DNA of 64,000 bases from a virus. The stretch is from positions 1 through 64,000 of the IMG/VR virus record IMGVR_UViG_3300025769_012879; one strand, given 5' to 3'. The notes below the pieces were generated by a model. That model was not told where the DNA came from. It did not search any database and was given only the letters and a program-made list of their open reading frames with translations. Both the position numbers and the translations under genes were made by a program. Position 1 is the stretch's first letter; every line of letters begins with the position of its first letter. Shown here one piece after another: positions 2,183 through 24,202 of this stretch.

Positions 2183-2680
2183 ATGAAAATTACAAAAGAC
2201 TTATTACGCGAAATGATTAAAGAGGAACTCGTTGCTCTTAAAGAGGAAATGGGTCTTAAACCCGACCAATTGACACCCGAACAGCAAGCGCTTAGAAATA
2301 AAAAGGTAATGCAATTTTTAAGCGATCCTGCTGTTCATAAATTACAAAAAAAGTATGGAATATTTTTAAGTAAAGTGCCCTTAGGTGATGACTATAATAG
2401 TTATGATCTGCTTAGTTACTTTGGATTAGATGCTAAAGCAGTCCGTCAAAAGGATGTATCTGATGTAATGCCCAACCTTAAGAAATCAGGTGAAAACCTT
2501 TCAAATAAGGAATATAATAAGGCTCTTTATCAGTACGTTCGCACCAAAAAGATCGTTGATGGAATGAAAAATTCGCCTTTCTATGATCAGGAACTATCTG
2601 ATCTTCGCAAACAGCGTGCTGCTTTGTTAAAAATGCGCGCAAAAGATCCAACCCTTCCCGAACCTCCCCCTATTGGTTAA
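2183..2680 (+). CDS. Putative internal head protein with MKITKDLLREMIKEE leader
   Basis: Amphipathic leader ending in Glu; late motif upstream. Confidence 0.6.
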   Translation: MKITKDLLREMIKEELVALKEEMGLKPDQLTPEQQALRNKKVMQFLSDPAVHKLQKKYGIFLSKVPLGDDYNSYDLLSYFGLDAKAVRQKDVSDVMPNLKKSGENLSNKEYNKALYQYVRTKKIVDGMKNSPFYDQELSDLRKQRAALLKMRAKDPTLPEPPPIG

Positions 2681-2805
2681 TTGTTTTCTATGGTGGGGCG
2701 GCACTCACATTTCTGTGCTGTCTCACCTATAGCGTGACCTAACGCAAAAGAGAATATAATCAGGATGATAGTGCATAGATAAAGATCTATTCGTTTATAG
2801 GGCAT
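2677..2805 (-). CDS. Small membrane protein, 42 aa (MPYKRIDLYLCTIILIIFSFALG...)
   Basis: Translated by hand; AGGAGG SD; overlaps the HNH gene end. Confidence 0.55.
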   Translation of the reverse strand: MPYKRIDLYLCTIILIIFSFALGHAIGETAQKCECRPTIENN

Positions 2806-3178
2806 TGTTGTCCTCCTGGGAATGGATAAGGTATTGGATTGCTGCTTCTAAGGATTTTATATTGTCTTTGAAATATCCTAGACCTAAGTTACAGTTATTA
2901 CATAATAAACCTCGGACTTTTCCGGTTGAATGACAATGGTCAACTTTCCAACCTCCAATACCTCGGGGTTCATCTGTCCCGCAAATTTTGCATTTATTAT
3001 TTTGGTTCTCGACCATGCGGTCATATTGGTCTGCGTCTATGCCATATTTGCGAAGTAGTTCTTTAGATTTTAATTCTTTCCTATTGAATTTATTATATAA
3101 TTTGCGTTGATTCTTTCTACGCTCTTTTCGGGCATCATACGCTTTGTCTAAATTTTCGCTATATTTGTTATTCGGCAT
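2795..3178 (-). CDS. Endonuclease VII-family HNH nuclease
   Basis: CKIC...VDHCHSTGKVRGLLCNNCNLGLG. ATG at 3178 preferred over the track start 3199 because TATAAT lies 7 nt upstream of it. Confidence 0.9.
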   Translation of the reverse strand: MPNNKYSENLDKAYDARKERRKNQRKLYNKFNRKELKSKELLRKYGIDADQYDRMVENQNNKCKICGTDEPRGIGGWKVDHCHSTGKVRGLLCNNCNLGLGYFKDNIKSLEAAIQYLIHSQEDNNAL

Positions 3179-3267: not shown

Positions 3268-3274
3268 CTATTTA
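3268..3274 (+). promoter_or_regulatory. Putative late promoter CTATTTA, 4 nt before ATG (leaderless)
   Basis: CTATTTA-TTAC-ATG; no SD. Confidence 0.6.
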
Positions 3275-3278
3275 TTAC

Positions 3279-4739
3279 ATGGAAAAAATACTAAACGATT
3301 GGCGTTCTTATGTCAATGAACAAACTGAGGGTTTGTCAGATCTTCAAAAGCAGAGAGCATCTGAGTATGTTGCCTCCCTTGTCAAGTTTTTAATAGAGGC
3401 ATCAGAACCAAAACTTAAAGATGTGGTTTTTGAATTGATCACAAACTGGAATAAAAAACAAAGTCGCGGCGAATACGAGGGTCGTACTGACCATGTTATA
3501 CGTTCTAAGGGAAAAGCATTTATTAATAAAGCAGAATCTGCTGCGGACAAACTGCTTCAAACTGTTATTAATTTTGAGAAAAGAAATCAATTACCATCAC
3601 TATTAAATGGTTATAGAAAAATAACTGGATCATCTTTAACCGATGATCTTCAAAAAATTATTATTTTACCAATGTCAGTTGGCAAAAAAATTGAACAAAT
3701 TCTGAAGATTTTTGGTACGACCAAAAAAACACCCGCAGAACTAAAATCAAATAATTTATTTTTTCCCGGTATGCAAATTATTTTAAAACAACTTGCAAAA
3801 AGTTTTCTCAGAGAAGGTGCTCCACTTAATGTAAGAATGCTTGGTTTATACCTTTCTAAATTTAAAGGACCTTTTACAGAAAAAAACTTAACACAATCCG
3901 AAAAAGAATTTATTAAACAAATATGTTTATTTGAGATGAATTCGCGCTGGGTGGAGGATGTGCTGGGTAAAGCGTGGGGCGAGGTATGGGACAATACATT
4001 CTTTGGAGACGACTACTGGGCTAAACCGATTCGTCAGCGTGAAACTCCACAAAGGGATGCTGCGATTGCCGCTTTCAAGCGATCAGAGTCAAGGTCGGAA
4101 AAACAATATAAAAAATTTAAAAAAGGTGAACTTGGTCCAACTGCGATTATGCCAACACCATCAAGTTATGATGGAAACATGAGAGTGTATGGCAAATCAG
4201 GCAAGGCGGGCGATATCGCCACTTTAGAAACAACATCATTTAAAATTGGCGGCAAGGGCAAGAGTTATCGATCCTATACCAAGTATAAAAAACTGTTTTT
4301 TGGCGGTGGAACAACAAATATTGACAAAGGCAAAATTGTCGGTACTGTTGGGGAAGATACGGCAGATGCCCTTGGTACAGCACTGGGGCAATTTATATTT
4401 AAAGTTGACACTAAAAGTAAACAAATTCGTATTTTTGATAACTATGATTTTAATCAGGCAGATCGAGCAATGAACCTTGAAAAAGCTGGGGAGCGTGGTC
4501 AAAAATTTATGTCCACACCTTCAATTGAATTTGCAAAACACACCAAACACGCTTTGAAGAATCTTTTGAAAATTATAAAAAAGAATGAAAAATTTAATCT
4601 TTTTAATTTTATTGAAGATATGTCTACAATGGTTGCAATTGTAACTAAAAATTATAACGGTTACCCAGTTAGAATAACCTTAAAATATGATAACAACCCT
4701 TCAAAAGTTAAACCGGGTCTATGGAAAGGGTTTAGTTAA
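3279..4739 (+). CDS. Putative head-packaged protein with MEKILNDWRSYVNE leader
   Basis: Leader resembles that of 9258. C-terminal LGQF...DNYDFN domain of unknown function. Confidence 0.65.
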   Translation: MEKILNDWRSYVNEQTEGLSDLQKQRASEYVASLVKFLIEASEPKLKDVVFELITNWNKKQSRGEYEGRTDHVIRSKGKAFINKAESAADKLLQTVINFEKRNQLPSLLNGYRKITGSSLTDDLQKIIILPMSVGKKIEQILKIFGTTKKTPAELKSNNLFFPGMQIILKQLAKSFLREGAPLNVRMLGLYLSKFKGPFTEKNLTQSEKEFIKQICLFEMNSRWVEDVLGKAWGEVWDNTFFGDDYWAKPIRQRETPQRDAAIAAFKRSESRSEKQYKKFKKGELGPTAIMPTPSSYDGNMRVYGKSGKAGDIATLETTSFKIGGKGKSYRSYTKYKKLFFGGGTTNIDKGKIVGTVGEDTADALGTALGQFIFKVDTKSKQIRIFDNYDFNQADRAMNLEKAGERGQKFMSTPSIEFAKHTKHALKNLLKIIKKNEKFNLFNFIEDMSTMVAIVTKNYNGYPVRITLKYDNNPSKVKPGLWKGFS

Positions 4740-4752
4740 ACTTTATAGATTA

Positions 4753-4783: not shown

Positions 4784-5428
4784 ATGAAAACACATATAAC
4801 TGAATATGAAATGAAACTCGCAAACATTATGTCTGCGATTGAATATGATTTTCCCGACTTTAAAATCGTATCAAAAAAAGACTCTAAACTTATGAGGATC
4901 TTATCAAAGGTCCTCTTTTTTAATAAAAACTTTATGACCCGTTACATCACGGTTATTGGCAATACTGTATATGTCCCATCTAAGCAGTGGGTAAAAGATA
5001 ATCCTTATGCTGCTTTAGAAGTATTTTGTCATGAATGGGTTCACATGAAAGACAATAGAGAGTTAGGACCCTTATTTAAATTCCTGTATTTAACACCACA
5101 AATTTTTTCTTTGATGTCGCTGTTTTCATTGTGGTCTGGCAACCTTTGGTGGTTATTATGCCTTCTCTATCTTCTACCTATGCCCTCACTCGCTCGTTCT
5201 GAACTTGAGATGCGTGGATATGCTGTCAGCATGGCAGTCCGTTGGTGGGTCTTGGAAGAAAAACCTGATTATGAAAGAATCTCAAAATATTTTACTTCGT
5301 CAGCATATTACTGGATGTATCCTGTAAAGTCAGGAGTAATTCAAGATCTTGAAGAAAACTTTGAGAGAATTAAGCGAATGGAACTTCGCCCTCATGAAAA
5401 GCAGATTTTAGAGATTCTCGTTAATTAA
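4784..5428 (+). CDS. Membrane-associated zincin-like metallopeptidase
   Basis: CHEWVH (HExxH), hydrophobic segment, downstream ELEMRGY. Confidence 0.65.
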   Translation: MKTHITEYEMKLANIMSAIEYDFPDFKIVSKKDSKLMRILSKVLFFNKNFMTRYITVIGNTVYVPSKQWVKDNPYAALEVFCHEWVHMKDNRELGPLFKFLYLTPQIFSLMSLFSLWSGNLWWLLCLLYLLPMPSLARSELEMRGYAVSMAVRWWVLEEKPDYERISKYFTSSAYYWMYPVKSGVIQDLEENFERIKRMELRPHEKQILEILVN

Positions 5429-7532
5429 GAATAATCGTCTTTCCTTTAGCACTCAGAGAAACAATCGTAGGTGAAACTTTGTTTTTACTCGCCTGCATAA
5501 AGACCTCGATTTGTAAAAATCTGCCTTTAACGCCCTGTAACTTATAAGGAAATTTATTTGGCGGGAAAGGTCCAATCTTTTTGGACCACTGTGTTGTTTC
5601 CATCAACTTTAAATCATCAGCGACTCTATAGCGGACATCAATAAAAGAATTTTCGGGGGTCACAAACTCAAGGTCTATTTGTTCCCATTCCGTAGTGGTT
5701 TTTGTTTCAGCAACAGTGCCACCCCAACCACCATAACCAAATGTGTGTTGGAAGTCTCCCTTTGGTGCTGTGTAGTTGTGTAGAGTGTACCCTGTCATGT
5801 CTGAATAGGTGTATGGACCTTTGCCTACGGAATACTCACCAACAACAGAGTTTTTAGTTGGGTCAATTTTTGTAGCAGAGGACTTTGACTGATTCACCGC
5901 CCAGACATAACCGTCGTAGTCCACAGCGATGCCCACAGGGTATCTACCACTGCCTAATGAGATGTGTTGCATTACAGTGAGAGTAACAACATTAATTTTT
6001 GCAACTGAAGAAGTTTGATCGAGAGCAACATAAACATGTCCGTCGTTGGAAGTTGCAATGCCACGACTTCTATTATTATGTTTAACAACCGCCCATTGTT
6101 TTGTTATTGGGTCATAGCGAGAAGATGAAGTTGTTGTGTCCGCTACCCAAATGCGACCAAACATATCTACATTGATGCCGTAGGGTGAACCACCACCCTT
6201 TCCTACATTCTGAACTGATTTGGTTTTTGGGTCAACTCGTAAGAGAGCAGAACATCCACGACCAGCAATCCAAATAATGCCCTTTTGATCAATAACAAGT
6301 CCATAAGGGTTGCAACCAATGTTTATTTGGTCTACTGATTGTCCAGCATTTGGTTCAAGTCTACGAAGTCGCTTGCTGTTCCAGAAACCAAACCAAGCGT
6401 GGTTGTCTTTATCAACTCCCGCTGCACGGGCAACGGTCTTACCGTCAGGGTTTACAATAAATTGAATGCATTCATCATTAGAAACAATGTTTTTACCTGA
6501 TGAGGTTTCAATGTTGCCGTTTCCGTTTTTATCTACACAATCTTTTTTATTTACTCTTATCTTCGCGACTGAACCGTCTCCACGACAACCTATCCAACAG
6601 TCACCGTTGAGGTCCACAGATGTGCGAGAAGGGTTAGAACAAATACTGTACCGACCTTCTTCGACACCTGTTTTAGTGTTTAGTTTTGAGACAGTGTTCT
6701 CAGAAGAGTTTGCAATCCAAATGTGGTTGAGGTTTACTGATGTTTTGCCAATGTCCAACTCTATGTAACCATTCGCATCTAACTTCAGACCCTTTTTATT
6801 TCCAAGGTCAAATGGTTTGCCATAGTCCGGTCCTATTTGTTGTTTAATGCAAGAAAGGTCGCAAGTTCCACAGGAAGAAAGGACTCCTTCATCAATAAGT
6901 CCATTGCAGTTATTATCCTTACTATCGCAGGACTCTGGTTGCGGTAACTTCTCACCAGTACACATTCCCCAATAACCTGATTTACAAAGTTGAATGCCTG
7001 CTTGGCAAATACCTTTTCCTATCCATTGGGGTTCACCTGAGTAGCAGTTTGCTGCCGTTGACTTACAAGGACACCCTTCCCAATTTTGTTTTGAGCAGTC
7101 AGGGCAAATAGCAGCAAAGTTTGGGTTGCTATCATCACAGTCGCCGCCTTTGTAGCAACCAAGACCATAACCATCGCCATCTTTATCTACACATGTCTGC
7201 CACATTCCAGTGTCAGGTAGACCACCCTTTGTATCAGGACCACCGATTGGAGGACCAGAGGAAGTGTCTTTCTTTGGAGGGTCTGGGAGAATAGTATCAA
7301 TCGTACCACCATCAATGAATTGAACATTTACATCAGGTGGAGGACCGAGAGCATCAACCGTACCAGTTGAATCTACTGGTAAGGAAGTTGTATCTTCAAC
7401 AACATCTTTTGGTAAAGTTATAATATCTGGTGTTGGAGTATAATATCCAGCATCAGCAAGTGTTATTGGTGTATAGGTTGGTGCTTTGGAGCACCCGCCA
7501 ATGATTAAAAAGATAAAAAATAATTTTCGCAT
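5421..7532 (-). CDS. Myxobacterial-type lipoprotein: Cys-rich Ca/metal-binding repeats plus Vgb/NHL-like beta-propeller
   Basis: Lipobox-like IIGG-C; P/T/D linker; DKDGDGY..DCDD and ESCDSKDNNCNGLIDE motifs; IWIANS..PSRTSVDLNG..PYG..PYTYSDMTG repeats. Confidence 0.75.
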   Translation of the reverse strand: MRKLFFIFLIIGGCSKAPTYTPITLADAGYYTPTPDIITLPKDVVEDTTSLPVDSTGTVDALGPPPDVNVQFIDGGTIDTILPDPPKKDTSSGPPIGGPDTKGGLPDTGMWQTCVDKDGDGYGLGCYKGGDCDDSNPNFAAICPDCSKQNWEGCPCKSTAANCYSGEPQWIGKGICQAGIQLCKSGYWGMCTGEKLPQPESCDSKDNNCNGLIDEGVLSSCGTCDLSCIKQQIGPDYGKPFDLGNKKGLKLDANGYIELDIGKTSVNLNHIWIANSSENTVSKLNTKTGVEEGRYSICSNPSRTSVDLNGDCWIGCRGDGSVAKIRVNKKDCVDKNGNGNIETSSGKNIVSNDECIQFIVNPDGKTVARAAGVDKDNHAWFGFWNSKRLRRLEPNAGQSVDQINIGCNPYGLVIDQKGIIWIAGRGCSALLRVDPKTKSVQNVGKGGGSPYGINVDMFGRIWVADTTTSSSRYDPITKQWAVVKHNNRSRGIATSNDGHVYVALDQTSSVAKINVVTLTVMQHISLGSGRYPVGIAVDYDGYVWAVNQSKSSATKIDPTKNSVVGEYSVGKGPYTYSDMTGYTLHNYTAPKGDFQHTFGYGGWGGTVAETKTTTEWEQIDLEFVTPENSFIDVRYRVADDLKLMETTQWSKKIGPFPPNKFPYKLQGVKGRFLQIEVFMQASKNKVSPTIVSLSAKGKTIILN

Positions 7533-7562: not shown

Positions 7563-7916
7563 CTACTTCCAGAAAATTTGAATACCAACAAGTGTGAAAG
7601 CAAGTAAAGAACTTACAATATTTTTTGGAGTAAAAGCAGATTCGCCCATCAATATCCAGGTTAATATTGGAAAACTGACATAGGACAATCCAAATCCAAG
7701 TAGTCTAGACGCCCATGCAGATTCTAATCCAGCGTAAGACCATTTAGATCCCCACCAAAAAGCAAGAGAAACCGGTAGGGACCAAATAAGTGCTGTTATG
7801 AGAGGTTTGTCTTTCCACCAATCCCAAACAAACTGAGAGTTGTTTAGAAACCAAGCAAATACTTGTCCCAGTAAAAGCATCAGGGATCCAAGTATGATTA
7901 GTGTAGTTTTAGACAT
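7563..7916 (-). CDS. Four-helix small membrane protein (SMR/DMT-like topology)
   Basis: Four hydrophobic segments in 117 aa. Confidence 0.6.
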   Translation of the reverse strand: MSKTTLIILGSLMLLLGQVFAWFLNNSQFVWDWWKDKPLITALIWSLPVSLAFWWGSKWSYAGLESAWASRLLGFGLSYVSFPILTWILMGESAFTPKNIVSSLLAFTLVGIQIFWK

Positions 7917-8578
7917 TACTTTTTCTTTTTTAAGCGTTGTGTCTTTTTCTTAGACGCTTCCTTTCTCTTTGTAGCATAATCATATGCTTTTTTCAAGCGC
8001 TTTTTTGTTTCAGGGTTCTTTGCATTACGATAAGCAGCACGAACTCGCTGATGTATGAGATTTATTATTTGAGATTGACGGGCATGATCTTTGGACTTAA
8101 AGTCAGATCTTGAGAGTGTATCTCTGATGTCTGAGACAGTTTTAAATTTTACTGGGACCGTATCTTTTGGATTCTCATCTGTGTAAAGGCGACGACTTGA
8201 ACCTTTTGGTTTTTTACCAGTGCCTTTAGCGGGTTCTTTCTTTTCGCCCATGTGTTTGAAGTATTGTACTTCACGTTCACGTTGACGAATTGCTTTTTTA
8301 GTTGTTTTACAACCCAATTTTCTACGTTTGCCTGTTTTTCGGTTCTTTTTCTTGGAGTATAGGCAGTATTTGTCACCAACTTTACGAATAATTTCTTCTA
8401 GTGGTTCTTCAATTTGCTCATTTTTATAATGACCACCACGTTTTTTACGCTTGCAGTATGCTTTCTGACTAAACCCTTTTGGATTTGAGCAATTTATTGA
8501 TTTTTTGTATTTTACAGACCAGCGTTTTTTCTTTTTGCCAGTTCTGGGTTTATTGTATTCAACAATTATGCGAATCAT
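7916..8578 (-). CDS. Highly basic three-module protein, probable internal head polyprotein
   Basis: Modules WSVKYKKSINCSNPKGFSQKAYC / IRKVGDKYCLYSKK..REVQYFKH / GTGKKPKGSSRRLYTDENPKD, separated by Glu sites. Confidence 0.65.
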   Translation of the reverse strand: MIRIIVEYNKPRTGKKKKRWSVKYKKSINCSNPKGFSQKAYCKRKKRGGHYKNEQIEEPLEEIIRKVGDKYCLYSKKKNRKTGKRRKLGCKTTKKAIRQREREVQYFKHMGEKKEPAKGTGKKPKGSSRRLYTDENPKDTVPVKFKTVSDIRDTLSRSDFKSKDHARQSQIINLIHQRVRAAYRNAKNPETKKRLKKAYDYATKRKEASKKKTQRLKKKK

Positions 8579-8895: not shown

Positions 8896-9252
8896 ATGAA
8901 AGTACGTTTTGTCATCAAAGAGCAGGAAGATACTTTGGTTCAACCACCAGAGGAAGTCACTTCTGGCAAGAATGAATTAAAAAATCAGATTGACTCAGAA
9001 CTATTAAATCTAAATCTTGATGATGTAGACACTCAACAATTAGAAAATTTACTAAATCAAATTAAAACAATGAAAGGTGAAGATGCAGCATCACTTGCAG
9101 AGAAGAAAAAGTTGACAAAATCTAAAATCAAAAAGAGAGATGAAATTGCCGATGCGATTTCTACTAAAGACATTGAGAAGCGATATGGTGTTGGCAAAAA
9201 GAAAGCAAAAGATATCAAATATGCAATTGCCACAAAGACAGCAATGAAGTAG
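8896..9252 (+). CDS. Putative internal head protein (acidic propeptide plus basic C-terminal module)
   Basis: MKVRFVIKE leader; acidic half, then SLAE followed by KKKLTKSKIKKRDEIADAI..YAIATK. Confidence 0.65.
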   Translation: MKVRFVIKEQEDTLVQPPEEVTSGKNELKNQIDSELLNLNLDDVDTQQLENLLNQIKTMKGEDAASLAEKKKLTKSKIKKRDEIADAISTKDIEKRYGVGKKKAKDIKYAIATKTAMK

Positions 9253-9257
9253 AAAAA

Positions 9258-10193
9258 ATGAAACTAATACTTGAAAATTGGCGAAACTTTTTAAATGAGC
9301 AAGATGATGCAACAGTCCCAGCAAAACCAGGGGCAAAAAAAGCATTTTATGATGCTCCAACAGCAAAATTAGGTCCTAAAAAAGACGTTGAAGATCAAGA
9401 ATTGGACCCTATTGAACTTACGACTGACATAGAAAAAGAAAATGCGAAGCAAATTTTCTTATATTACTTGAAAGAGAGAAATGTTAGAGACATTTTTAAC
9501 TTAGGTACAATGCCAAAAGATCAAGAATTTAATAAAATGATGAAAGAACCAGCAAAGGTTAAAAAATTCATTGATCATATGGTTGCAAAAAACGATATTT
9601 TGAAAAAAAATAAGATTAAAGAGTTTTTAGGGGCAGGATCTTTTGGATTTGTTGTACTTTTAGATAACGATCATGCACTTAAAATTTATAGTGGTTCATT
9701 TGATCCAGAAAAAATCATCGACTTAGGTGCCAAAACTGACCGTGAGAGATATCAAACATCTCAAGAAAAGGCATTCGGTGGAGTTGGAGACATTACAGAC
9801 TTGCACATCTATGATGAAGGTGAGATTGAGTTACCAACAGACCGCACTTGGTACTATGCAGAGATGCCAGAGTTAGTAAAACTTAGTGATCATATCCGTT
9901 TTGTACATAAAGATAAGAACCCAGCGGAAGTTACCACTAAATTAGACCTTGAAATTACAAAGTTGAAGTATATTGCTCAAGATGATGTTGAAAATGAAAC
10001 TGAAAGTGACATTGAAAGTGTCATGAAGGAACACAATATTACTCTTTTGGACAAAAAGTTTGCAGCAAATCTTTTGGATCAGTTAAGAGACATGCTAAAA
10101 ACAAAAACTTTTGAACAAATTCAAGATGTTAGAGGAGCAAACATTGGAATCATGCGTGGAAAAGAAGAGATTCCAGTGATTTTTGACTACTAA
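9258..10193 (+). CDS. Protein-kinase-like fold protein with MKLILENWRNFLNE leader
   Basis: LGAGSFGFV Gly loop, ALKI lysine, DVRGANIG catalytic loop, terminal VIFD. Confidence 0.7.
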   Translation: MKLILENWRNFLNEQDDATVPAKPGAKKAFYDAPTAKLGPKKDVEDQELDPIELTTDIEKENAKQIFLYYLKERNVRDIFNLGTMPKDQEFNKMMKEPAKVKKFIDHMVAKNDILKKNKIKEFLGAGSFGFVVLLDNDHALKIYSGSFDPEKIIDLGAKTDRERYQTSQEKAFGGVGDITDLHIYDEGEIELPTDRTWYYAEMPELVKLSDHIRFVHKDKNPAEVTTKLDLEITKLKYIAQDDVENETESDIESVMKEHNITLLDKKFAANLLDQLRDMLKTKTFEQIQDVRGANIGIMRGKEEIPVIFDY

Positions 10194-11683: not shown

Positions 11684-11690
11684 CTATTTA
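11684..11690 (+). promoter_or_regulatory. Putative late promoter CTATTTA heading the 11.7-24.5 kb operon
   Basis: Intergenic motif. Confidence 0.55.
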
Positions 11691-11706
11691 CTTAGGTTGT
11701 GATATT

Positions 11707-15916: not shown

Positions 15917-18900
15917 ATGCACGAAATTAAAAATTTTTCAACCAAGTCTTTAAAAAGAGATCTTCTAGAAGAATTTCTCAATTACATGAACGAAGAGTTA
16001 TCAATAGATCAACCTTACTCTCTCTACTTTGTTGATGATAAAGAAAATGCCTCTGAAGCACTTGGCAAGACTGCCATGTATAACCCTTCTACAAACTCAG
16101 TTTACATTTATGTTACGAATAGGCACCCAAAAGACATTATGCGTTCTATTGCTCATGAGTTGGTTCACCACAAGCAAAATTGCAGCGGTGAATTACAAAA
16201 TATGTCATTTGAAAAAGCAGAAACTGATGCTAATGCTGGCGGTTTTTTTCTTAGAAAGTTTGAAGATGGTAGAAAGAAGATGGAAGAGCAGAAAGTACAA
16301 TTAAATGTTGGTGCTCGCAAACGTAAAGATATTATAGCAGATTATGAGGACGGCGACCTACCACAACTTAAAATTACAACTGCTAAACAACAAAAAGCAA
16401 TATTAAACACAAATTCGGATAGCAAAACTGGAAAATGTGAAACAGGGTATGAGAAAAGAAAAATAGGTGGTAGGAACCTAGTTTTTCAAAATAAAGAGAT
16501 CTGCCTTCCAAAAGAATTGAATAAAGAATTCCCAGTGGGGAATTTTTCAGGTGTTCTAGCAACAAATAAAGACGTGGCACTTATGGTCAAGGATGTTCAA
16601 AAAAATGGTGCTAACAGTATCTTTTTAACAGATTTGGTTCCTGATTCACTAACTAATGCGATACTTTCATTTGAGATTATAAAGAAGGATCTTGAAGTCG
16701 TTAAAGGATTAAAAACACCCGGTGAAGATTATATACCAAAAAGATCTAAATTCAAAAAAGATCTGAAAAATTATGAAAAAGAAGTTAAAAAGTTTGTAGA
16801 ACTTCAAAAAGACAAAATTGGTGCTAAACCACCAGAATTTCCTAAATCAGATATACAATTGTACACAAAAAGTCAATTGGAGGCGGCAACCAGACTCTAT
16901 TATTTAAACAGGGATGGGGTTTTATTAATTCCAGGTAGAACTATAAGAAGTACAGATATAATTGGCAAAAAATTTGAAGATTGGATATTTGGCGCTGATG
17001 TAAATAACTTTGGACGTGTATATAAAGTAAATCCAGAGCAACTTGAATTATATAGAAGAAAAATTAAACCCAGTGAAAAAAAACTGGAAAGTATAATGGG
17101 CGTTGAAGCAGCAGGAGCACAAGTTATAAAATGGGGCGGCAAAGATAGAAAATATGACCCATTGCTAAAAATTCAAGACGGACTAGATTTGGTCGGATTA
17201 AGTGTAGATCCCTACGGCGTTGGTGTCGCAGCAGATTTTATTAATGGTCTTATATATTTTGAAAAATGGGTTCTATATGATAAACCCCCGTTCGTAAAAA
17301 TTCCATTGCCAGATGCTTTAAAAGAATATACAAGTGTTTTTGGTGCGGAAAATATTTATCTACCATCAGAGAACTGGTGGATGTCTATGGTGTCTTTTGC
17401 TGGTGTTACTGTATTTGGAGACACTGCAAAAATAACTAGAGGACCTCTGGTTAGTTATGTTAGAGCAATGGAGAGATCCGTATCGGCATTGAAAGGAATG
17501 ACAGGTCGTACCTCAAGCACACTTTATTTAAAAACTTTTCAAAGAATGATGGATTTGCTTCAAACTATTTGGTTGCCAATCAAAGATGTTCTGCTTTCTT
17601 TAATCAGCGGAAAGAAACGCGAGTTCGCTGAGTCTTTTTTGGGTCTAATAATGTCACGCCCTATTGCTAAAAAAGTTGCAAAAGAATTATTTGGGGACGG
17701 TAAATTGCCCGATTGGTTTAAAAAAATTGATGATGGAATGACTGAAGTAATTAAGTCATCACGAAAATTTGTATTAACTGTTGCCAAAAGAAAGACTGCG
17801 ATTAAAGAAGCGATAAATACAGTTACTGCGGAGTACGCAAAAGAAATTACTAGCAAACTAGTATCAACACTTGGAGTCGATGAGATTGCCGGTGTTCTTG
17901 CAAAAAAACTACAGCAAGACTTTGATATTGGTCTTATTGATCAATTATATGATGCTGCTGGTAACTTAATTTGGACAAAGATACCTAGAGATTTAGATAA
18001 AATTGCTGACCCCGTTCTTAGAACAAAATTAAATAATATGAATAAAACTCAGTTGGCGAATTGGGCGAAGGAGTCTTTCAAAGATGCGGCAGAGAGTGTA
18101 TCAAAGGAAATAGCAGAAGGGATTAGAAAGAGTCCAGAATTCGCCAGGAAGTTTAGTAATCAAGTTTTTGATTTGGTGAACTCATCTAAATTTAGAGAAG
18201 AACTTTTTAAGAAATACAGCAAAGAAATTTTAATAAAGTTAGAGCAATTCGAGGCGGCAGGATTGCCAGTTACAGAGTCAATTATCAGACTTGAAGTTCA
18301 AAGGGTTGTTACAAAAGCGGGCAGCGAAGATCTTGCAGGTCTTGTTACTGGTTCTATTCCATTTATAGAGGAAGAATTTGCTCGCGTTGCTGCAAAGCGA
18401 ATTGGTGGTGAAGCGGCAGCGGAGGCGGGTCTCGCTATTAGAGCAGGGTGGTATAGCAAATTCATGAGAATGGTAAAAGCATTCATTGCTAAAAACGTTT
18501 TTGTGACCCAGGGTATTGGAGGTATCCTTTATAAGAAACTATTCAATAGCATGAAAGATGAATTTTTAAAAGTTTTCAAGGCAACAACATACGAAAATTT
18601 GAAATTCGGACCTAAAATAGTGAGACCACTCTGGGGTCTTGCGGTAACTTACTTTAAACTGCTATTATTTCTTGCTGCTGGTAAGACGAATACGTTCTTG
18701 CACATTTACGCTAGATATTATAGACCTATTTGTGGTGAACGAGACTTTGTAAAATATTTCAACAATATTGTTATTCCTGCCATTGCGGTAATATGGAAAG
18801 CGGCGCTAACACCAATGTCCGCTACATATGACTATCTTGCTGGTACCCCACCTAAAAATCCCGGTCCAGTGTTTTATAAGCAGACTTTATTTGAAACCTT

Positions 18901-19552
18901 TAAAATGTTTATTACACCTGAGACTGGTGAAATTCAAATTAATTTTGGGACAGGGACATCTGGTTTTGTAAAAACGCTAGAGTGTAAAAGATTTTCCAAG
19001 ATTAAAAAGAGTGAAGTTGGTAAATCCTCCGATGCACAAACTAGAATAAAACTCAAAAAAGTATATTTTGATCACGCCAAAAACGTCACAGATAGATTAA
19101 ATGCTTTAATAAAGGAAGATGAAAGATTAACCAAACAGTTTATAGAAAATACAATCAATCAAGCAACTACAGACGAAGTTAAGGATCAAAATGACGCCAA
19201 TACAAGTGTAGCATCTGATGCTGCTCAAGCAACAGCAAAACAAAAATCCGATGCTGCCGAACGTGAAAGGCAAAGAAATAAAGAACAAAAAGAATTACGC
19301 GATCGACTTCGTGCGGCACGACAAGGTAGGAAAACTGGGTTTAAGGAACCCCCTAAAAGTTCAACGCCTGCTGCTAAACCTGCAACAACGCCTACTACTA
19401 AACCTGCAACAACAGCACCCGCTGCTAGACCAGCACCACCGACATCCCCAGGTGACAGTCAGATGACAGGCGAGTCTAAAAATCTTTCTGATTATCGAAA
19501 AGATATATTAGAAGAAAGATTAGAAAAACTTATAATAGGATTTACTAAATGA
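15917..19552 (+). CDS. Multidomain protein: N-terminal zincin, pre-toxin-TG-like segment, long helical region
   Basis: RSIAHELVHHKQ..E.DAN; LDLVGLSVDPYGVGVAADFINGLIY..GDTAK; P/A/T-rich linker near the C terminus. Confidence 0.7.
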   Translation: MHEIKNFSTKSLKRDLLEEFLNYMNEELSIDQPYSLYFVDDKENASEALGKTAMYNPSTNSVYIYVTNRHPKDIMRSIAHELVHHKQNCSGELQNMSFEKAETDANAGGFFLRKFEDGRKKMEEQKVQLNVGARKRKDIIADYEDGDLPQLKITTAKQQKAILNTNSDSKTGKCETGYEKRKIGGRNLVFQNKEICLPKELNKEFPVGNFSGVLATNKDVALMVKDVQKNGANSIFLTDLVPDSLTNAILSFEIIKKDLEVVKGLKTPGEDYIPKRSKFKKDLKNYEKEVKKFVELQKDKIGAKPPEFPKSDIQLYTKSQLEAATRLYYLNRDGVLLIPGRTIRSTDIIGKKFEDWIFGADVNNFGRVYKVNPEQLELYRRKIKPSEKKLESIMGVEAAGAQVIKWGGKDRKYDPLLKIQDGLDLVGLSVDPYGVGVAADFINGLIYFEKWVLYDKPPFVKIPLPDALKEYTSVFGAENIYLPSENWWMSMVSFAGVTVFGDTAKITRGPLVSYVRAMERSVSALKGMTGRTSSTLYLKTFQRMMDLLQTIWLPIKDVLLSLISGKKREFAESFLGLIMSRPIAKKVAKELFGDGKLPDWFKKIDDGMTEVIKSSRKFVLTVAKRKTAIKEAINTVTAEYAKEITSKLVSTLGVDEIAGVLAKKLQQDFDIGLIDQLYDAAGNLIWTKIPRDLDKIADPVLRTKLNNMNKTQLANWAKESFKDAAESVSKEIAEGIRKSPEFARKFSNQVFDLVNSSKFREELFKKYSKEILIKLEQFEAAGLPVTESIIRLEVQRVVTKAGSEDLAGLVTGSIPFIEEEFARVAAKRIGGEAAAEAGLAIRAGWYSKFMRMVKAFIAKNVFVTQGIGGILYKKLFNSMKDEFLKVFKATTYENLKFGPKIVRPLWGLAVTYFKLLLFLAAGKTNTFLHIYARYYRPICGERDFVKYFNNIVIPAIAVIWKAALTPMSATYDYLAGTPPKNPGPVFYKQTLFETFKMFITPETGEIQINFGTGTSGFVKTLECKRFSKIKKSEVGKSSDAQTRIKLKKVYFDHAKNVTDRLNALIKEDERLTKQFIENTINQATTDEVKDQNDANTSVASDAAQATAKQKSDAAERERQRNKEQKELRDRLRAARQGRKTGFKEPPKSSTPAAKPATTPTTKPATTAPAARPAPPTSPGDSQMTGESKNLSDYRKDILEERLEKLIIGFTK

Positions 19553-19746: not shown

Positions 19747-20733
19747 ATGGCAACTGCTGCATTAGACGCATATTATCTTTATCGTAAAACTACCGACACT
19801 GGTAGAGTAGCATTATCAAGTCCTACAACCTTGTTTGCTTCTGGTGTTGACTCAAGCATTAGTGCTTTAACCAATATTGGTTTTACATTTAATTTTAATA
19901 ATACTGACTATACTCAGTTTGCTGCTTGTACAGATGGTTATATCCAACTTGGTGCTGCGGATACTGCTGATTTTACAAACGATTTAATCCAGGTTGATAC
20001 AAGAACTATTCTTTGCCCATGGTGGGACGATTTAAAGACTATGGGTAATGGTCTTCGCTATGAATTACAAGGTACTTCACCAAATAGAAAACTTGTTGTT
20101 GACTTTGATTCTCAGATTTTTTGGAATGATAGTGATCCAAACTTAAAATTTCAAGTCATCCTTTACGAGACAACGAACAGAATTGAATTTAGATATGATG
20201 ATCCTGCATCATCAAGTGGGGCATCAAGCAGTGCTTCTGTTGGTGCAAAAATAACAATCACCAGCAATGCTGGCACTGATGCTGATGGCAAGTTTAGAGA
20301 CTTTGTTGGTTCTACAGTTTCACCTTATGATGTAGAAAACAACTCCAATGGTGGATGGTCTCAAGTCATGCGTGATGGTGCTGTTGTTAAGATTCCAAAC
20401 AACACACAAGTTGGTACAGAAGGAAGAGATTTTCCTGGTGATCCTGATAACGATCAGCAAGGCGAACAATACTACTTCCTATTCTCGCCTGACGAAGAAG
20501 GCGGCGGTGGCGGCGGCGGTGACACCGATGGTGATGAAGGTGCAAAATTTAATGTTAATCCAGAAGGGTCATTTGACGGTCCTTTAATCACACGATTTAG
20601 TGCAGTAAATACAAATTACAATAAAACGGGTGGAGTTGAACAAATTCCTTTTTCCCTACAACAACCAGGACCTTTTTCATTAAAGTTTAGAGGCACAGCA
20701 TTTAAAATAACATCAGGAGACTCAAATGAATAA
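19747..20733 (+). CDS. Beta-rich extracellular-type (nidogen-like) domain protein, probably virion-associated
   Basis: IGFTFNF..TDGYI..PWWDDL..GTSPNR..FQVILYE..IEFRY; poly-Gly linker 20500-20520. Confidence 0.6.
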   Translation: MATAALDAYYLYRKTTDTGRVALSSPTTLFASGVDSSISALTNIGFTFNFNNTDYTQFAACTDGYIQLGAADTADFTNDLIQVDTRTILCPWWDDLKTMGNGLRYELQGTSPNRKLVVDFDSQIFWNDSDPNLKFQVILYETTNRIEFRYDDPASSSGASSSASVGAKITITSNAGTDADGKFRDFVGSTVSPYDVENNSNGGWSQVMRDGAVVKIPNNTQVGTEGRDFPGDPDNDQQGEQYYFLFSPDEEGGGGGGGDTDGDEGAKFNVNPEGSFDGPLITRFSAVNTNYNKTGGVEQIPFSLQQPGPFSLKFRGTAFKITSGDSNE

Positions 20734-23700
20734 AATCCTAAATGAAGGCGGCAATATTTTTAAAGGTGCTGAAGGTGGATCAGAAACCATTCGTATTAAG
20801 CGTGAAGATGTTGACCCTACTCTTGAATGGTTAGAAGGTATTTTAGGTATTGATCTTGTTAATTTTAAGTTGGGAACAACCGGTAGAAAAGAAACATCTG
20901 GTGATTTAGATATTGCTATTGATAAGGATAAGGTATCAAAAGACGATCTTATCAAAAAGTTATTAGCATGGGTAAATGAAAATCATCCCGAACTTGACCT
21001 AGCAAATTCTGATGAAAAAGAGATGAAACAAAAGGTTCGTCAATGGATTGCAAAATCAGGTACATCAGTTCACTTCAAAACACCAATTCGTGGTGATGAA
21101 GCAAATGGTTTTGTTCAGACAGACCTTATGTTTGGTAACCCAGATTTCATGCTTTGGGCAGTCAAAGGCGAGATGGGACCAAGCGAGTATCGTGGTGGGG
21201 ATAGACAGAACTTAATTAATGCCATTGCAACGCAGCGTGGTTACGCCTGGAGCGCTTTCTTTGGTCTAAAGGATAGAGAGTCTGGCGAAAGGACAAACGA
21301 CCCGCAGGAGGTCGTAGACAAGGTTCTAGGACCAGGACATAAACCTGAAGACTTTGACAGTATTTACACACTATTTGATATTATTGCTGATAAAGAGAAA
21401 TATCCCGACGATGTTTATGAGGCAATACGCGAAAAAGCAGGTTTTGAGTTTCCACACCGTGATGAGACTTTAGACGAGGCAAAGAAAATTGAACCTCGTA
21501 TTCAACATGCTGAAGATTTAATTTTCTTTGAAGGCAGTGAAGGCGCTATGCGTGCTCTTGACGCTCTTGAAAAGATGAATGATCCCGAAGGTCGCCCAGA
21601 GACATCTCTAAAATGGGACGGTTCACCAGCAGTTATTTTTGGTCGTGATGCAGATGGTAAATTTATTTTTACTGATAAGAGTGGGTTTGGTGTAAAGTCA
21701 TATAAAGGCAAGGTCGAATCTGAACAGGAAATGGAAGACATGTACCGTGCTCGTTCAGAGCGTGCGGCTAAAAAGATGGGTGTTGATCCAGAAGGTGTTT
21801 TCCAGAAAAGATATTCAAAGATTACTCCTATGATGCAGAAAGCATTTAGGTTAGCAGAAAAATCAGTTGATCCTGACCACAGAGGATACTTCTTTGGTGA
21901 GGTTCTTTACTTCGATAAACCAAAGGTTGAAGACGGCAAGTTTGTTTTCAAACCAAATATGGTAAAGTATAAGGTTGCAACTGACTCAGAAATTGGTAAA
22001 AAGATTGCAAATTCAGATGTTGGTATTGTTTTGCACCTAAAGAAAGACGTTGAAACTCTTGAAAATCAACCACTTGATTTTGAAGGTATGACGCCAGATT
22101 CAGATATTCTTTTCTTTGGTAAGACATTTATTGAAAAACCAGTTGGTGTTGACGATACAGAAGTTGCTGAAATAAAACAAATGGTTTCTACAAATTCTCA
22201 AGCAATTGATGGATTTTTCAACGCTGAAAAATTACGCAAGTTTGCTATTTCTGATTTACCAAATCTATTTTACACTTATCTCAACAGTAAGGTTGATACT
22301 GGATTAGAAAACTTGGGTGGTGATTTTATTGAGTGGATGAACAGTAAAGATAGAATCTCATCACAAAAGAAAGAAAATGTAGCAAACTACATTAATGATA
22401 ATAAAGATACTTTTGATATTATTTGGCAAATTGTTTCTAGAACTATGAAAGTTAAAGATGACGTTATTGCCAATATTGATTCACAGGGTGGGTTGGAATT
22501 TAGTCAATCACTCGGTGATGAAGAAGTAGGTGAGGGTTATGTCCTTTCCGATGAAGGCAAATTAATCAAGTTGGTTGATCGCTCTAAATTTACAAGAGCA
22601 AATCGTTCAGTTGTTAGAGAACAAGAGGAACTTGATCCCGACTATGAGGATGATCTCGCAGGTCAGATTGCTGATATCGCAGACGTTGAAACACACGTCT
22701 TTATTCCTGGTGGATTTAAACCACCACACAAAGGACACCTTTCACTACTTCTTCAGGCAATTGATAAATACCCTGATGCCATTGTTCATATTACAAGTGG
22801 TCCAACAAAGCGAACTGCTGGTGATTTAGAGATCAGCGCTGAACAAGCAAAACAAGTTTGGGAAAAATATATTGAAAAATATGGAATTAGTAATGAAGTA
22901 GAACTTGACTATTTTGATCGTTTTGCCACAAACAGAAAGAAAAAAGATGGATCTGTAATAACTTCATCAAGTCCATTCCTTAGAATTGGTCTTAGAATGG
23001 AAAATGAATTAGATCCAAATTCAAAGGTTGTCGCTGTATCTTCAGAAGATGAGCATATCAATTTTGTAAAAAATGCAGCAACTTATCTAAATGATAAGAA
23101 AGAAAAGAATTTCACTTTTGAACCATTAAAAGCAGAAAAAATTGAAGTTGAACCTGGAGTTAAATTCTCTGCTACTCAAATGCGTAAAGCAATTAGTGAA
23201 GGTGATTTCGATACATTCAAAGCATTCATGCCAGAAAAACTTTCTGATGATGATGCAAAAGAAATATTTGAAATGCTTGGGGGTGTTATGGGTGAGGCAT
23301 CCGTCGCTGCAAATATCGGGGGTTATTCGCTCCCTTTTGGATCGGATGAAAATCAAAACGAACAAACTATTTATAGGGAGCAGTTACGTCAAGTAATCAG
23401 ACATTTAATTACCAAAGAGAGAGATGAAATGTTAAGTGAAGAAAAACAATTAAGACAACTTATTAGACAAATTATTAAAGAAAATGATACTCCAACTAAA
23501 TCTACTGGATTAAATAAATTAATTCAAGCATTGAAGATTATTCTTCCAACTGTAGAGAATGGTTATAAATCTTTAACTACTGATAAGGAACAAAGAGACT
23601 CATTTAAGCAGCACTATCTCAAAGCAATCATTGATACTCTCTCACCACAAGATGCTATTCGTGATGCGTCTGGTGGCGAAGCATCTGCCATGCTAGGTGG

Positions 23701-24202
23701 TTCTGCACTTGAAGAACAAGAAGAGATTGAGGTGAATGTAACTGATGACGTCGCAGATCCAGCAGATTTAAGTGCCGATATCGAAGAGACAGAACCAGAA
23801 GACGTTACTCAGATTAAAAGAGATGCTGGTGTAACATTAAAAGATATTGAAGGTAAGAAAACTGATATTCCATTACCACAGATTCCTGGTTTAGATGAAA
23901 CTGGTAGAGATGAATCAGTTGATGTATATAAAAAGACTGTTGATGCTATTACTAGAAACTACAGAACTCTACATAATGAAAGTGATAGAAAAGAATTTAA
24001 AGAATATCTTGTAACTAATTTATTACTTTACTTTGATAAGTTTGAAAATGATATTGCTCCTGAGTTAAATCCTGTTACTACACCTGAGTATGAGAAACAG
24101 AAAGCAGAAAAAGCACAGTTCACTTCACAGGGTGCAGAAACAGTATCTGAAGAAATTAAGAAAGCAATAAGAGAAACATTAAAGAATAGTTTATTTGGAT
24201 GA
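20726..24202 (+). CDS. Polyprotein: Pol-beta NTase, ligase-like KWDG (DUF6267-like) domain, HIGH cytidylyltransferase-like domain, C-terminal module
   Basis: GTTG..SGDLDIAID; HAED..KWDGSPA..GEGYV..KLVDRSKF; PGGFKPPHKGH..SATQMR. Confidence 0.75.
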   Translation: MNKILNEGGNIFKGAEGGSETIRIKREDVDPTLEWLEGILGIDLVNFKLGTTGRKETSGDLDIAIDKDKVSKDDLIKKLLAWVNENHPELDLANSDEKEMKQKVRQWIAKSGTSVHFKTPIRGDEANGFVQTDLMFGNPDFMLWAVKGEMGPSEYRGGDRQNLINAIATQRGYAWSAFFGLKDRESGERTNDPQEVVDKVLGPGHKPEDFDSIYTLFDIIADKEKYPDDVYEAIREKAGFEFPHRDETLDEAKKIEPRIQHAEDLIFFEGSEGAMRALDALEKMNDPEGRPETSLKWDGSPAVIFGRDADGKFIFTDKSGFGVKSYKGKVESEQEMEDMYRARSERAAKKMGVDPEGVFQKRYSKITPMMQKAFRLAEKSVDPDHRGYFFGEVLYFDKPKVEDGKFVFKPNMVKYKVATDSEIGKKIANSDVGIVLHLKKDVETLENQPLDFEGMTPDSDILFFGKTFIEKPVGVDDTEVAEIKQMVSTNSQAIDGFFNAEKLRKFAISDLPNLFYTYLNSKVDTGLENLGGDFIEWMNSKDRISSQKKENVANYINDNKDTFDIIWQIVSRTMKVKDDVIANIDSQGGLEFSQSLGDEEVGEGYVLSDEGKLIKLVDRSKFTRANRSVVREQEELDPDYEDDLAGQIADIADVETHVFIPGGFKPPHKGHLSLLLQAIDKYPDAIVHITSGPTKRTAGDLEISAEQAKQVWEKYIEKYGISNEVELDYFDRFATNRKKKDGSVITSSSPFLRIGLRMENELDPNSKVVAVSSEDEHINFVKNAATYLNDKKEKNFTFEPLKAEKIEVEPGVKFSATQMRKAISEGDFDTFKAFMPEKLSDDDAKEIFEMLGGVMGEASVAANIGGYSLPFGSDENQNEQTIYREQLRQVIRHLITKERDEMLSEEKQLRQLIRQIIKENDTPTKSTGLNKLIQALKIILPTVENGYKSLTTDKEQRDSFKQHYLKAIIDTLSPQDAIRDASGGEASAMLGGSALEEQEEIEVNVTDDVADPADLSADIEETEPEDVTQIKRDAGVTLKDIEGKKTDIPLPQIPGLDETGRDESVDVYKKTVDAITRNYRTLHNESDRKEFKEYLVTNLLLYFDKFENDIAPELNPVTTPEYEKQKAEKAQFTSQGAETVSEEIKKAIRETLKNSLFG

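What the first reader, a model, noticed from the sequence alone, without database searches (positions are those of the whole stretch)
2183..24202. A 22-kb arsenal of leader-tagged, Glu-cleavable polyproteins: candidate capsid-delivered effector system
Seen: unrelated proteins start with short amphipathic leaders ending in Glu: MKITKDLLREMIKEE (2183), MEKILNDWRSYVNE (3279), MIRIIVE (8578), MKVRFVIKE (8896), MKLILENWRNFLNE (9258), MNKILNE (20726). Hydrophobic-x-E sites recur at domain junctions (PLEE, HMGE, SLAE, SLDE, ALEE..LTE, KMEE, TLDE, VVRE, VMGE, IIKE). The genes lie behind the putative late motif. Established: T4 internal proteins carry an N-terminal capsid-targeting sequence (MKTYQEFIAE-like), and T4 gp21 cleaves after (I/L)-x-E. 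Inference: the phage packages polyproteins that its head protease cuts into separate enzymes (kinase, NTases, ligase-like, zincin, amidase, DNA-binding peptides), which are injected with the DNA for host takeover or counter-defence. The leader would be a portable packaging tag.
Basis: partly seen in the sequence, partly recalled or inferred. Interest (0 to 1): 0.85.

Follow-up and report, generated by a model that had tools for sequence, protein, structure and literature searches.

The report
Capsid-targeting-like leader tags in T4-like phage
Three genes in this stretch of an uncultured aquatic T4-like phage start with short peptide tags that head thousands of otherwise unrelated proteins in phages with the T4-type head protease, and these tags most likely load the proteins into the capsid as phage T4's own tag does, while the idea that the neighbouring giant genes are cut into separate enzymes is not supported.

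Summary
The window is the first 64 kb of a 141-kb T4-like phage contig that encodes an S77 (gp21-type) prohead protease and a gp23-type capsid protein.

All six quoted N-termini are present. Only three belong to real leader families.
- Type A (MK-LL-x-ENWR-x-FL-x-E): genes 3279 and 9258.
- Type B (MKITK-x-QLKQIIKEE): gene 2183.

Both leaders are strictly N-terminal, conserved at protein level, and end in [LIV]-x-E, the T4 gp21 cleavage motif. Both are fused to unrelated cargo. Type A carries enzymes. Type B carries small hypervariable proteins in tandem arrays beside the terminase-portal-protease genes, and its profile matches 13,215 protein clusters. Every near-complete carrier contig has the S77 protease. 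Reversed control patterns found nothing.

The best reading is a diverged analogue of the T4 capsid-targeting sequence. Packaging itself is untested.

The "22-kb arsenal of polyproteins" is overstated.
- Internal hydrophobic-x-E sites occur at or below chance.
- The block also holds lipoproteins and a NUDIX gene.
- The giant ORFs are domain fusions that a close relative encodes as separate genes.
- Only the 1158-aa enzyme shows a possible Alt-like 7-residue propeptide.

The scan has noted other capsid-targeting-like leaders in huge phages, but not these two families.

The parts
2151..2157 (+). late-type promoter-like motif CTATTTA, 25 nt before the 2183 start
   Evidence: the same motif precedes the scaffold, sheath and other structural genes
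2183..2680 (+). type-B leader gene (165 aa); the leader is roughly residues 1-16 (2183-2230), up to residue 22
   Evidence: HMM 35.5 bits; leader family
3268..3274 (+). late-type motif only 4 nt before the 3279 start (unusually close)
3279..4739 (+). type-A leader gene (486 aa); leader residues 1-14 (3279-3320); cargo of unknown fold, net basic
   Evidence: no family or fold found
5421..7532 (-). lipoprotein-signal beta-propeller protein (703 aa); not leader-tagged
   Evidence: N-terminus with lipobox-like Cys; Vgb_lyase/NHL/SGL repeats
7916..8578 (-). very basic 220-aa protein (net +53); N-terminus conserved only in a close relative, which lacks the basic middle part
   Evidence: no leader-family match
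8896..9252 (+). 118-aa protein behind a late-type motif at 8866; its N-terminus is not a widespread leader
9258..10193 (+). type-A leader gene (311 aa): leader 9258-9299, a conserved Pro/Ala/Lys linker, then a T7-kinase-like protein-kinase fold (residues ~100-311)
   Evidence: HMM 35 bits; conserved G-loop/Lys, D-x-R-x-x-N and terminal F-D-Y motifs; Atlas features 0.96 to a cluster with Phage_T7_kinase and TM 0.50-0.55 to Pkinase models. My own AF2 model was poor
10194..10427 (+). small signal-peptide protein, not leader-tagged
10978..11682 (+). lipoprotein-signal trypsin-like serine peptidase, exported rather than packaged
   Evidence: Trypsin_2 E = 2e-11; N-terminus
11684..12147 (+). late-type motif (11684) plus NUDIX hydrolase, the first gene of the long + strand run
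12147..15896 (+). 1249-aa fusion: a conserved Pol-beta-type nucleotidyltransferase module (about 1-325) ending at a conserved G-x-L-E-E junction, then a fast-diverging C-terminal region
   Evidence: phrog_36119; a separate 343-aa gene in relative L172; identity to relative L005 falls from 0.7 to 0.15
15917..19552 (+). 1211-aa protein: N-terminal HExxH zincin-like module (about 1-125), a long divergent region with hydrophobic helices, and a Pro/Thr/Lys-rich tail
   Evidence: weak phrog_87 and DUF6647 hits; sequence; identity profile
20726..24202 (+). 1158-aa four-module enzyme (Pol-beta NTase-like, KxDG ligase-like DUF6267, HIGH-type cytidylyltransferase-like, helical C-terminal domain). It has a possible 7-residue propeptide (20726-20746) ending L-N-E before G-G-N

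Best explanation
Genes 2183, 3279 and 9258, plus at least 133792 and probably 76903 elsewhere in the genome, carry two families of portable N-terminal leader peptides. These leaders most likely work like the capsid-targeting sequence (CTS) of phage T4 internal proteins.

Proposed mechanism:
- The 14-22-residue helix docks the newly made protein onto the scaffolding core of the assembling prohead.
- The S77 (gp21-type) prohead protease then cuts after the [L/I/V]-x-Glu that ends the leader.
- The freed cargo stays in the head and enters the host with the DNA.

In this window the cargo is a T7-kinase-like protein kinase (9258), a 470-aa basic protein of unknown fold (3279) and a 150-aa protein (2183).

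What is shown:
- The leaders are real and strictly N-terminal.
- They are under protein-level selection.
- They are fused to unrelated cargo.
- They are tied to phages with the S77 protease.

What is inferred: docking, cleavage, packaging and injection.

The rest of the 22 kb is not part of one system. The three giant ORFs are best read as multidomain fusion enzymes. Only the 1158-aa protein may be an Alt-like packaged enzyme with a short propeptide.
For: Genome context:
- S77 protease and gp23-type capsid protein are in the same genome.
- The own capsid protein aligns its L-R-E|A-S site to T4 gp23's L-T-E|A-E cut.

Type A leader:
- 40 of 41 IMG/VR matches lie within 15 residues of an ORF start. 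The search pattern carried no ATG.
- 25 distinct cargoes share only the leader.
- Cargo Pfam families include GNAT, Zeta_toxin/P-loop kinase, Amidase_2, C5 DNA methylase, HNH and HAD/5'-nucleotidase.
- With a looser core, the following residues are L/V/I/M in 86% and E two positions later in 73%.

Type B leader:
- More than 120 loci and 146 genes, median ORF 102 aa, in arrays of up to six.
- Conservation stops at residues 16-22, then a Gly/Asp/Pro/Glu-rich stretch follows.
- Synonymous codons vary freely.
- A core motif without the Met is N-terminal in 20 of 20 independently found loci and in 213 of 226 others, most of the rest at GTG starts.
- 134 leader ORFs fall into 124 sequence clusters.
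- 13,215 representative clusters match the profile at E <= 0.001.

Link to head assembly:
- S77 is present in 13 of 28 type-A and 18 of 22 type-B carrier contigs. That includes all six type-A carriers at least 50% complete and all four contigs at least 90% complete.
- The commonest neighbours of type-B genes are the T4-type large terminase (42 loci), gp20 portal (32) and S77 protease (23).

Controls and precedent:
- Reversed-pattern controls gave 0 hits.
- The T4 record shows ipII and ipIII starting with a 10-residue leader ending I-A-E|A.
- gp21 cuts after L/I-x-E, and the 10-residue CTS suffices for packaging (PMC9026906, PMC3012670).
- The leader genes here sit behind the motif shared with scaffold and sheath genes.
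Against: - There are no virion proteomics, N-terminal sequences or expression data for this phage or any carrier.
- No cultured carrier was found. S-WAM1, Flavobacterium phage immuto and HTVC008M have no type-B match. tblastn of the leaders against 50,697 phage records found nothing useful.
- Neither leader is detectably homologous to the T4 CTS.
- Type-B cargo is mostly acidic (64%), whereas T4 internal proteins are basic.
- Across the wider carrier set the late-type motif is no commoner before leader genes than before other genes (5% against 4%), so late timing is supported only in this genome.
- The residue after the Glu in type A is often Gln, which is not a documented gp21 P1' residue.
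- Many type-A cargoes are nucleotide-metabolism enzymes, which would also fit a cytoplasmic docking role.
Confidence: 0.55

Rival explanations
1. One reading: the giant ORFs (12147, 15917, 20726) are polyproteins. They are packaged and cut by the head protease at hydrophobic-x-Glu sites in the domain junctions, which releases separate enzymes.
For: - These are own residues ~325 of 12147, ~125 of 15917 and 857 of 20726. They also fall in predicted coil.
- The junction motifs are partly conserved: G-x-L-E-E in three relatives of 12147, and E-L-E-E-[IM]-S...G-Y-S-L-P in distant relatives of 20726.
- In relative L172 the modules are separate genes.
- Rare natural ORFs carry 2-4 type-B leader-cargo units in frame, some without the internal Met.
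- The run lies behind late-type motifs.
Against: - Internal [ILVM]-x-E sites are at or below chance in all three ORFs.
- Enrichment in linkers is not significant (p = 0.11), and linkers are Glu-rich anyway.
- 12147 and 15917 have no leader.
- The ligase-cytidylyltransferase-C-terminal architecture is kept as one ORF in distant phages without any leader. That fits a multidomain enzyme.
- The same operon continues into purA and PhoH.
- The structure model is of low confidence (pLDDT 45).
Confidence: 0.15
2. The leaders are docking or recognition tags for something other than the capsid. Candidates are a modifying enzyme (RiPP-like leader), a cytoplasmic enzyme complex such as a nucleotide-synthesis metabolon, or a protease-targeting degron.
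For: - An earlier scan note (e1-127136) describes a shared phage leader better explained by a radical-SAM partner.
- Several type-A cargoes are nucleotide-metabolism enzymes.
- No direct packaging evidence exists.
Against: - No radical-SAM gene is in this genome, and none is among the 25 commonest neighbour families of type-B genes.
- Those neighbours are instead the terminase, portal and head protease.
- The leaders end in the gp21 consensus motif.
- The leaders are charged amphipathic helices, not signal peptides.
Confidence: 0.2
3. The shared N-termini have no targeting role. They are leftovers of recombination or gene shuffling between neighbouring genes, or a translation-initiation optimum.
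For: - Leader genes sit in hyperplastic arrays where shuffling is expected.
Against: - Amino acids are conserved while synonymous codons vary.
- 13,215 clusters keep the same 16 residues in front of unrelated bodies.
- The motif is essentially never internal.
- Two different leader families co-occur in the same phages.
Confidence: 0.07

Closest known systems
[quoted passage not shown]
   Same: - A short N-terminal peptide shared by otherwise unrelated, fast-evolving proteins.
- It starts M-K and ends in [L/I]-x-E.
- It occurs in a phage with a gp21-type protease.
- The tagged genes lie in hyperplastic loci.
- Type A reads like the T4 leader with one extra helical turn.
   Different: - There is no detectable homology to the T4 leader.
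- It is longer (14-22 against 10 residues).
- Two leader families occur in one phage.
- Cargo includes many enzymes and mostly acidic small proteins.
- The scale is much larger (13,215 clusters for type B alone).
- Packaging and cleavage are untested.
T4 Alt, a packaged ADP-ribosyltransferase with a short N-terminal propeptide removed by gp21
   Same: - A large enzyme made late.
- A very short N-terminal peptide ending in [I/L]-x-E. This compares with the 7-residue start of the 1158-aa protein and its conserved L-x-E-G-G-N.
   Different: - The enzyme chemistry differs (nucleotidyltransferase/ligase-like modules).
- Only sequence conservation supports a propeptide here.
Ejection and inner-body proteins of phiKZ, 201phi2-1 and SPN3US, processed by gp21-like proteases after S/A-x-E
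   Same: - Many head proteins are cut after Glu by a diverged T4-type protease and delivered to the host.
- There are multiple cleavage sites per protein.
   Different: - Those phages have no single portable leader.
- Their motif is S/A-x-E.
- They are jumbo phages of a different lineage.
Phage T7 gp0.7 Ser/Thr protein kinase (Pfam Phage_T7_kinase)
   Same: The cargo of gene 9258 has the kinase motifs and a kinase-like predicted fold.
   Different: - T7 gp0.7 is made early and is not packaged.
- This protein carries a leader, sits in a late-type operon, and ends right after the D-F-G-equivalent.

Membership tests
T4-type CTS / internal-protein system | The phage encodes a gp21-type (S77) prohead protease | tested here: met
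   PF03420, E = 8e-36, at genome 85006-85620. Also present in all near-complete carrier contigs.
T4-type CTS / internal-protein system | A short N-terminal peptide is shared by otherwise unrelated proteins | tested here: met
T4-type CTS / internal-protein system | The leader ends in the protease consensus L/I-x-E | tested here: met
   Type B has I-K-E at residues 12-14, fixed there by the search pattern. Outside the pattern, residue 15 is E in 118 of 137, and half of the leaders have a second site at residues 21-22. Type A has [LVIM]-x-E in most leaders.
T4-type CTS / internal-protein system | Sequence homology to the T4 leader (ipII/ipIII N-terminus) | tested here: not met
   Only a shared skeleton (M-K ... 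E ... F-[LI]-x-E) is visible by eye against the T4 record. The leader HMMs were not run against T4, and no alignment-based support exists.
T4-type CTS / internal-protein system | Late expression together with head genes | tested here: inconclusive
   The motif shared with scaffold and sheath genes precedes 2183, 3279 and 8896-9258 in this genome. It is not enriched before leader genes across other carriers.
T4-type CTS / internal-protein system | Physical incorporation into the prohead, removal of the leader, and ejection into the host | not testable with these tools
   Needs virion mass spectrometry or a leader-reporter packaging assay.
Proteolytically processed viral polyprotein | Conserved cleavage sites between the mature products, above background | tested here: not met
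   Sites are at or below the shuffled expectation. Linker enrichment gives p = 0.11. Junction motifs are only partly conserved.
RiPP-like leader recognised by a radical-SAM or other maturase | A conserved modifying enzyme is encoded next to the tagged genes | tested here: not met
   No Radical_SAM gene in the genome. The commonest neighbours are head-assembly genes.
Sec or lipoprotein signal peptide | A hydrophobic h-region and a signal-peptidase site | tested here: not met
   The leaders are Lys/Glu-rich amphipathic helices. True signal peptides occur on other genes of the block (5421-7532, 10194, 10978).

The most novel reading that the evidence does not exclude
The two leaders are capsid-loading tags used across uncultured aquatic T4-like phages. 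They define a pool of well over ten thousand distinct head-packaged, injected proteins. The pool includes ready-made enzymes (protein kinase, DNA methylase, HNH nuclease, acetyltransferases, zeta-type kinases) and occasional multi-unit ORFs in which internal leader copies serve as protease-cut spacers. That would make the T4 internal-protein trick a major and largely unseen route of phage-to-host protein delivery in natural waters.
Probability: 0.35. Interest if true: 0.85.

Novelty: new variant of a known kind. Interest (0 to 1): 0.62.

Why it matters
In T4 the capsid-targeting sequence is known from a handful of internal proteins. One of them, IPI*, blocks a host restriction enzyme at the moment of injection.

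If these leaders do the same job, a simple sequence tag would pick out the injected protein set of thousands of uncultured phages. That set is the fraction most likely to hold first-minute anti-defence and host-takeover factors. It includes a pre-made T7-type kinase here, and methylases and nucleases elsewhere.

The tags would also be candidate portable packaging signals for loading foreign proteins into non-coli T4-like capsids.

Tried and rejected
- The canonical T4 late promoter TATAAATA is not used here. It has 6 forward and 9 reverse copies, none placed before genes.
- A word-based protein search with the first 40 residues of 9258 found only close orthologues.
- tblastn of both leaders against 50,697 phage records gave nothing meaningful, possibly because of the low-complexity filter.
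- Pattern searches of S-WAM1, Flavobacterium phage immuto and HTVC008M were negative.
- A full-text search for the leader strings found no relevant paper.
- PDB sequence searches of the giant ORFs and of the 9258 profile gave nothing usable.
- Both AlphaFold models were of low confidence (pLDDT 45), so no fold search was run on them.
- The Atlas gave no lead for the 3279 cargo.
- The leader-like stretch inside the 1158-aa protein (about residues 905-920) is part of a conserved helical domain present in distant relatives. It is not an internal leader.
- The 8896 N-terminus is not a family.
The multi-leader ORFs from the protein library therefore could not be traced to DNA. Two comparable cases were confirmed on IMG/VR DNA instead.

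Full report
**Context.** The window is the first 64 kb of a 141,045-bp IMG/VR virus contig, estimated 78% complete. The genome encodes a Peptidase_S77 (T4 gp21-type) prohead protease at 85006-85620 (E = 8e-36). It also encodes a gp23-type major capsid protein at 89396-91234. The nearest cultured capsid relatives are Microcystis, Flavobacterium and Rhodothermus T4-like phages at 36-51% identity. The premise that a T4-type head protease is present therefore holds.

**Observation check.**
- Proteins 3279 and 9258 share only their first 18 residues.
- Proteins 2183 and 133792 (outside the window) share a different leader.
- Leader HMMs run on the six-frame translation of the whole genome separate the real members cleanly. 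Type A scores 35 and 31 bits (9258, 3279). Type B scores 35.5 and 33.6 bits (2183, 133792). Everything else scores 7 bits or less.
- The two weak runners-up are suggestive. One is 76903, which lies just before the lysis/terminase block. The other is 85622, the gene right after the protease.
- The N-termini of 8578, 8896 and 20726 match neither family.

**Type A leader (roughly MK-LL-x-ENWR-x-FL-x-E).**
- A degenerate DNA pattern without a start codon found 39 IMG/VR stretches with 41 matches. The same pattern read backwards found none.
- Forty of the 41 matches lie within 15 residues of an ORF start. The sequence after the leader is unrelated from case to case.
- Across 25 distinct proteins only the leader columns are conserved.
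- Cargo Pfam families include GNAT acetyltransferase, Zeta_toxin/P-loop kinase, Amidase_2, C5 DNA methylase, HNH endonuclease and HAD/5'-nucleotidases.
- A looser search found 78 N-terminal against 11 internal matches, with up to six tagged genes per locus.
- With only the Trp core required, the next residues are L/V/I/M in 86% and Glu two positions later in 73%. This figure is partly circular, because about a third of the seeds were found with a pattern that fixed that Glu.

**Type B leader (MKITK-x-QLKQIIKEE).**
The reversed control gave 0.
- The ORFs are small, median 102 aa, and often sit in tandem arrays of up to six.
- Positions not fixed by the pattern are still conserved: Glu at 15 in 118 of 137, and a hydrophobic residue at 16. 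Conservation decays by residue 22 into a Gly/Asp/Pro/Glu-rich stretch. Half of the leaders have a second [ILVM]-x-E at residues 21-22.
- Synonymous codons vary freely, so selection acts on the peptide and not on the DNA.
- A core motif without the Met is N-terminal in 20 of 20 loci that were fetched through the type-A pattern. It is N-terminal in 213 of 226 others, and most of the rest sit at GTG starts.
- 134 leader ORFs fall into 124 BLAST clusters.
- A profile of 100 leaders matched 13,215 representative clusters at E <= 0.001 in 1.84 billion proteins.
- The cargo is soluble and mostly acidic.

**Link to head assembly, and rivals tested.**
- The S77 protease is present in 13 of 28 type-A carrier contigs and 18 of 22 large type-B carriers. 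This includes all six type-A carriers at least 50% complete and all four contigs at least 90% complete. The negatives are fragments.
- The commonest neighbours of type-B genes are the T4-type large terminase (42 loci), the gp20 portal (32), the S77 protease (23) and a gp46/47-like nuclease (18).
- An earlier scan note about a leader tied to a radical-SAM enzyme prompted a check. This genome has no Radical_SAM gene, and none appears among the top neighbour families.
- The leaders are charged amphipathic helices, unlike the true signal peptides on 5421-7532, 10194 and 10978.

**Comparison with T4.**
- In the T4 record, ipII and ipIII begin with the same 10-residue leader ending I-A-E before Ala. 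ipI has a related, longer one.
- The literature states that gp21 cuts after L/I-x-E, and that the first 10 residues of IPIII suffice for packaging. Propeptides range from 7 residues (Alt) to 65 residues (gp23). [quoted passage not shown]
- The capsid protein here aligns an L-R-E|A-S site to T4 gp23's L-T-E|A-E cut. The protease specificity is therefore plausibly kept, though this is an inference.
- Neither leader is detectably homologous to the T4 one. Type A shares its skeleton with one extra helical turn.

**Timing.**
- TATAAATA is not used.
- The enriched upstream word is (A)CTATTTA, with 24 forward and 5 reverse copies. Fifteen lie in intergenic DNA; twelve of these are 16-32 nt and one 4 nt before a start codon, and the other two are more than 200 nt from the next called ORF. 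The genes it precedes include the scaffold-like gene before the capsid gene, the 985-aa sheath-sized gene, and 2183, 3279, 8896 (with 9258 directly behind it) and 11707.
- This supports late-type expression in this genome. Across other carriers the word is not enriched before leader genes.

**The giant ORFs.**
- Internal [ILVM]-x-E sites are at or below the shuffled expectation (13, 16 and 21 observed against 19, 20 and 25).
- In close relative L172 the same modules are separate genes. These are the nucleotidyltransferase of 12147, the zincin module of 15917, and the body and the C-terminal domain of 20726.
- In cyanophages the DUF6267 and cytidylyltransferase parts are adjacent genes. In other distant phages ligase, cytidylyltransferase and C-terminal domain form one leaderless ORF.
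Two junction motifs are partly conserved. But linker enrichment is not significant (p = 0.11), and the model has pLDDT 45.
- Beyond their conserved N-terminal modules, 12147 and 15917 diverge to 13-30% identity between otherwise 70-80% identical relatives. This is unexplained.
- The 1158-aa protein keeps L-x-E-G-G-N at residues 5-10 in four orthologues. In L172 it carries a 22-residue type-B-like extension in front of the same site. This is the one hint of an Alt-like packaged enzyme.

**Polyproteins elsewhere in the family.** The top profile hits are ORFs with 2-4 type-B leader-cargo units in frame, and some internal copies lack the Met. Two such ORFs were confirmed on IMG/VR DNA under the standard code. 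They are rare: 218 of 13,215 hits at E <= 1e-10.

**Cargo in the window.**
- 9258 keeps a Gly-loop plus Lys, a D-x-R-x-x-N loop and a terminal F-D-Y across 48%-identical homologues.
- The ESM Atlas places 9258 next to a cluster carrying Phage_T7_kinase (features 0.96; 17% of members). It also places 9258 at TM 0.50-0.55 to Pkinase models. This is lead-level evidence.
- The 3279 and 2183 cargoes remain unknown.

**Verdict.**
It concerns three genes of the block, not a 22-kb system.
- The polyprotein reading is unsupported.
- The scan has already reported capsid-targeting-like leaders with other consensus sequences in huge phages. A sequence look-up for type B returned nothing, but it used only one short word and so says little.
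- All functional steps (docking, cleavage, packaging, injection) are inferred by analogy with T4.

Noticed in passing
genome 86049-86273 (outside the window; L001:2466-2690): A ribosomal protein S21 homologue (phrog_21469, E = 3e-12) sits inside the head-gene cluster, between the protease and the capsid gene.
   Followed up: no
genome 85622-86041 (L001:2039-2458): The 139-aa gene directly after the prohead protease is conserved in 14 type-B loci. Its N-terminus resembles the type-B leader (L-K-x-x-I-K-E core, 6.4 bits). The leader may derive from, or mimic, a prohead core protein.
   Followed up: partly
window 12147-15896 and 15917-19552: Only the first 100-400 residues are conserved (about 70% identity) between this phage and relative L005. 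The remaining 650-1000 residues fall to 13-30% identity. This is extreme divergence inside single ORFs of otherwise close genomes.
   Followed up: partly
genome 136849-137613 (outside the window): A 254-aa extremely acidic protein (net -56, with long Glu/Met-Glu runs) lies behind a late-type motif. It is a possible scaffold-like or DNA-mimic protein.
   Followed up: no
whole genome; window examples at 2151, 8866, 11684, 44544: The promoter-like word (A)CTATTTA replaces the T4 late promoter TATAAATA before structural genes. It has a strong strand bias (24 against 5).
   Followed up: partly
window 7916-8578 (-): A 220-aa protein with 74 Lys/Arg residues (net +53). The close relative keeps both ends but lacks the basic middle part. 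It resembles a DNA-condensing internal protein, but it lies on the opposite strand and has no recognised leader.
   Followed up: partly
L005:25-4137 (relative contig IMGVR_UViG_3300030117_007605): The relative's equivalent of window 1-5 kb holds three type-A-like leader genes and one type-B leader gene within 4 kb. This genome end is therefore a hyperplastic leader-gene island.
   Followed up: partly
window 23367-23373: A copy of the late-type motif lies inside the 20726 ORF, at the fusion point between the enzyme body and the C-terminal domain. That domain is a separate gene in relative L172, so the motif may be a relic of the former gene boundary.
   Followed up: no
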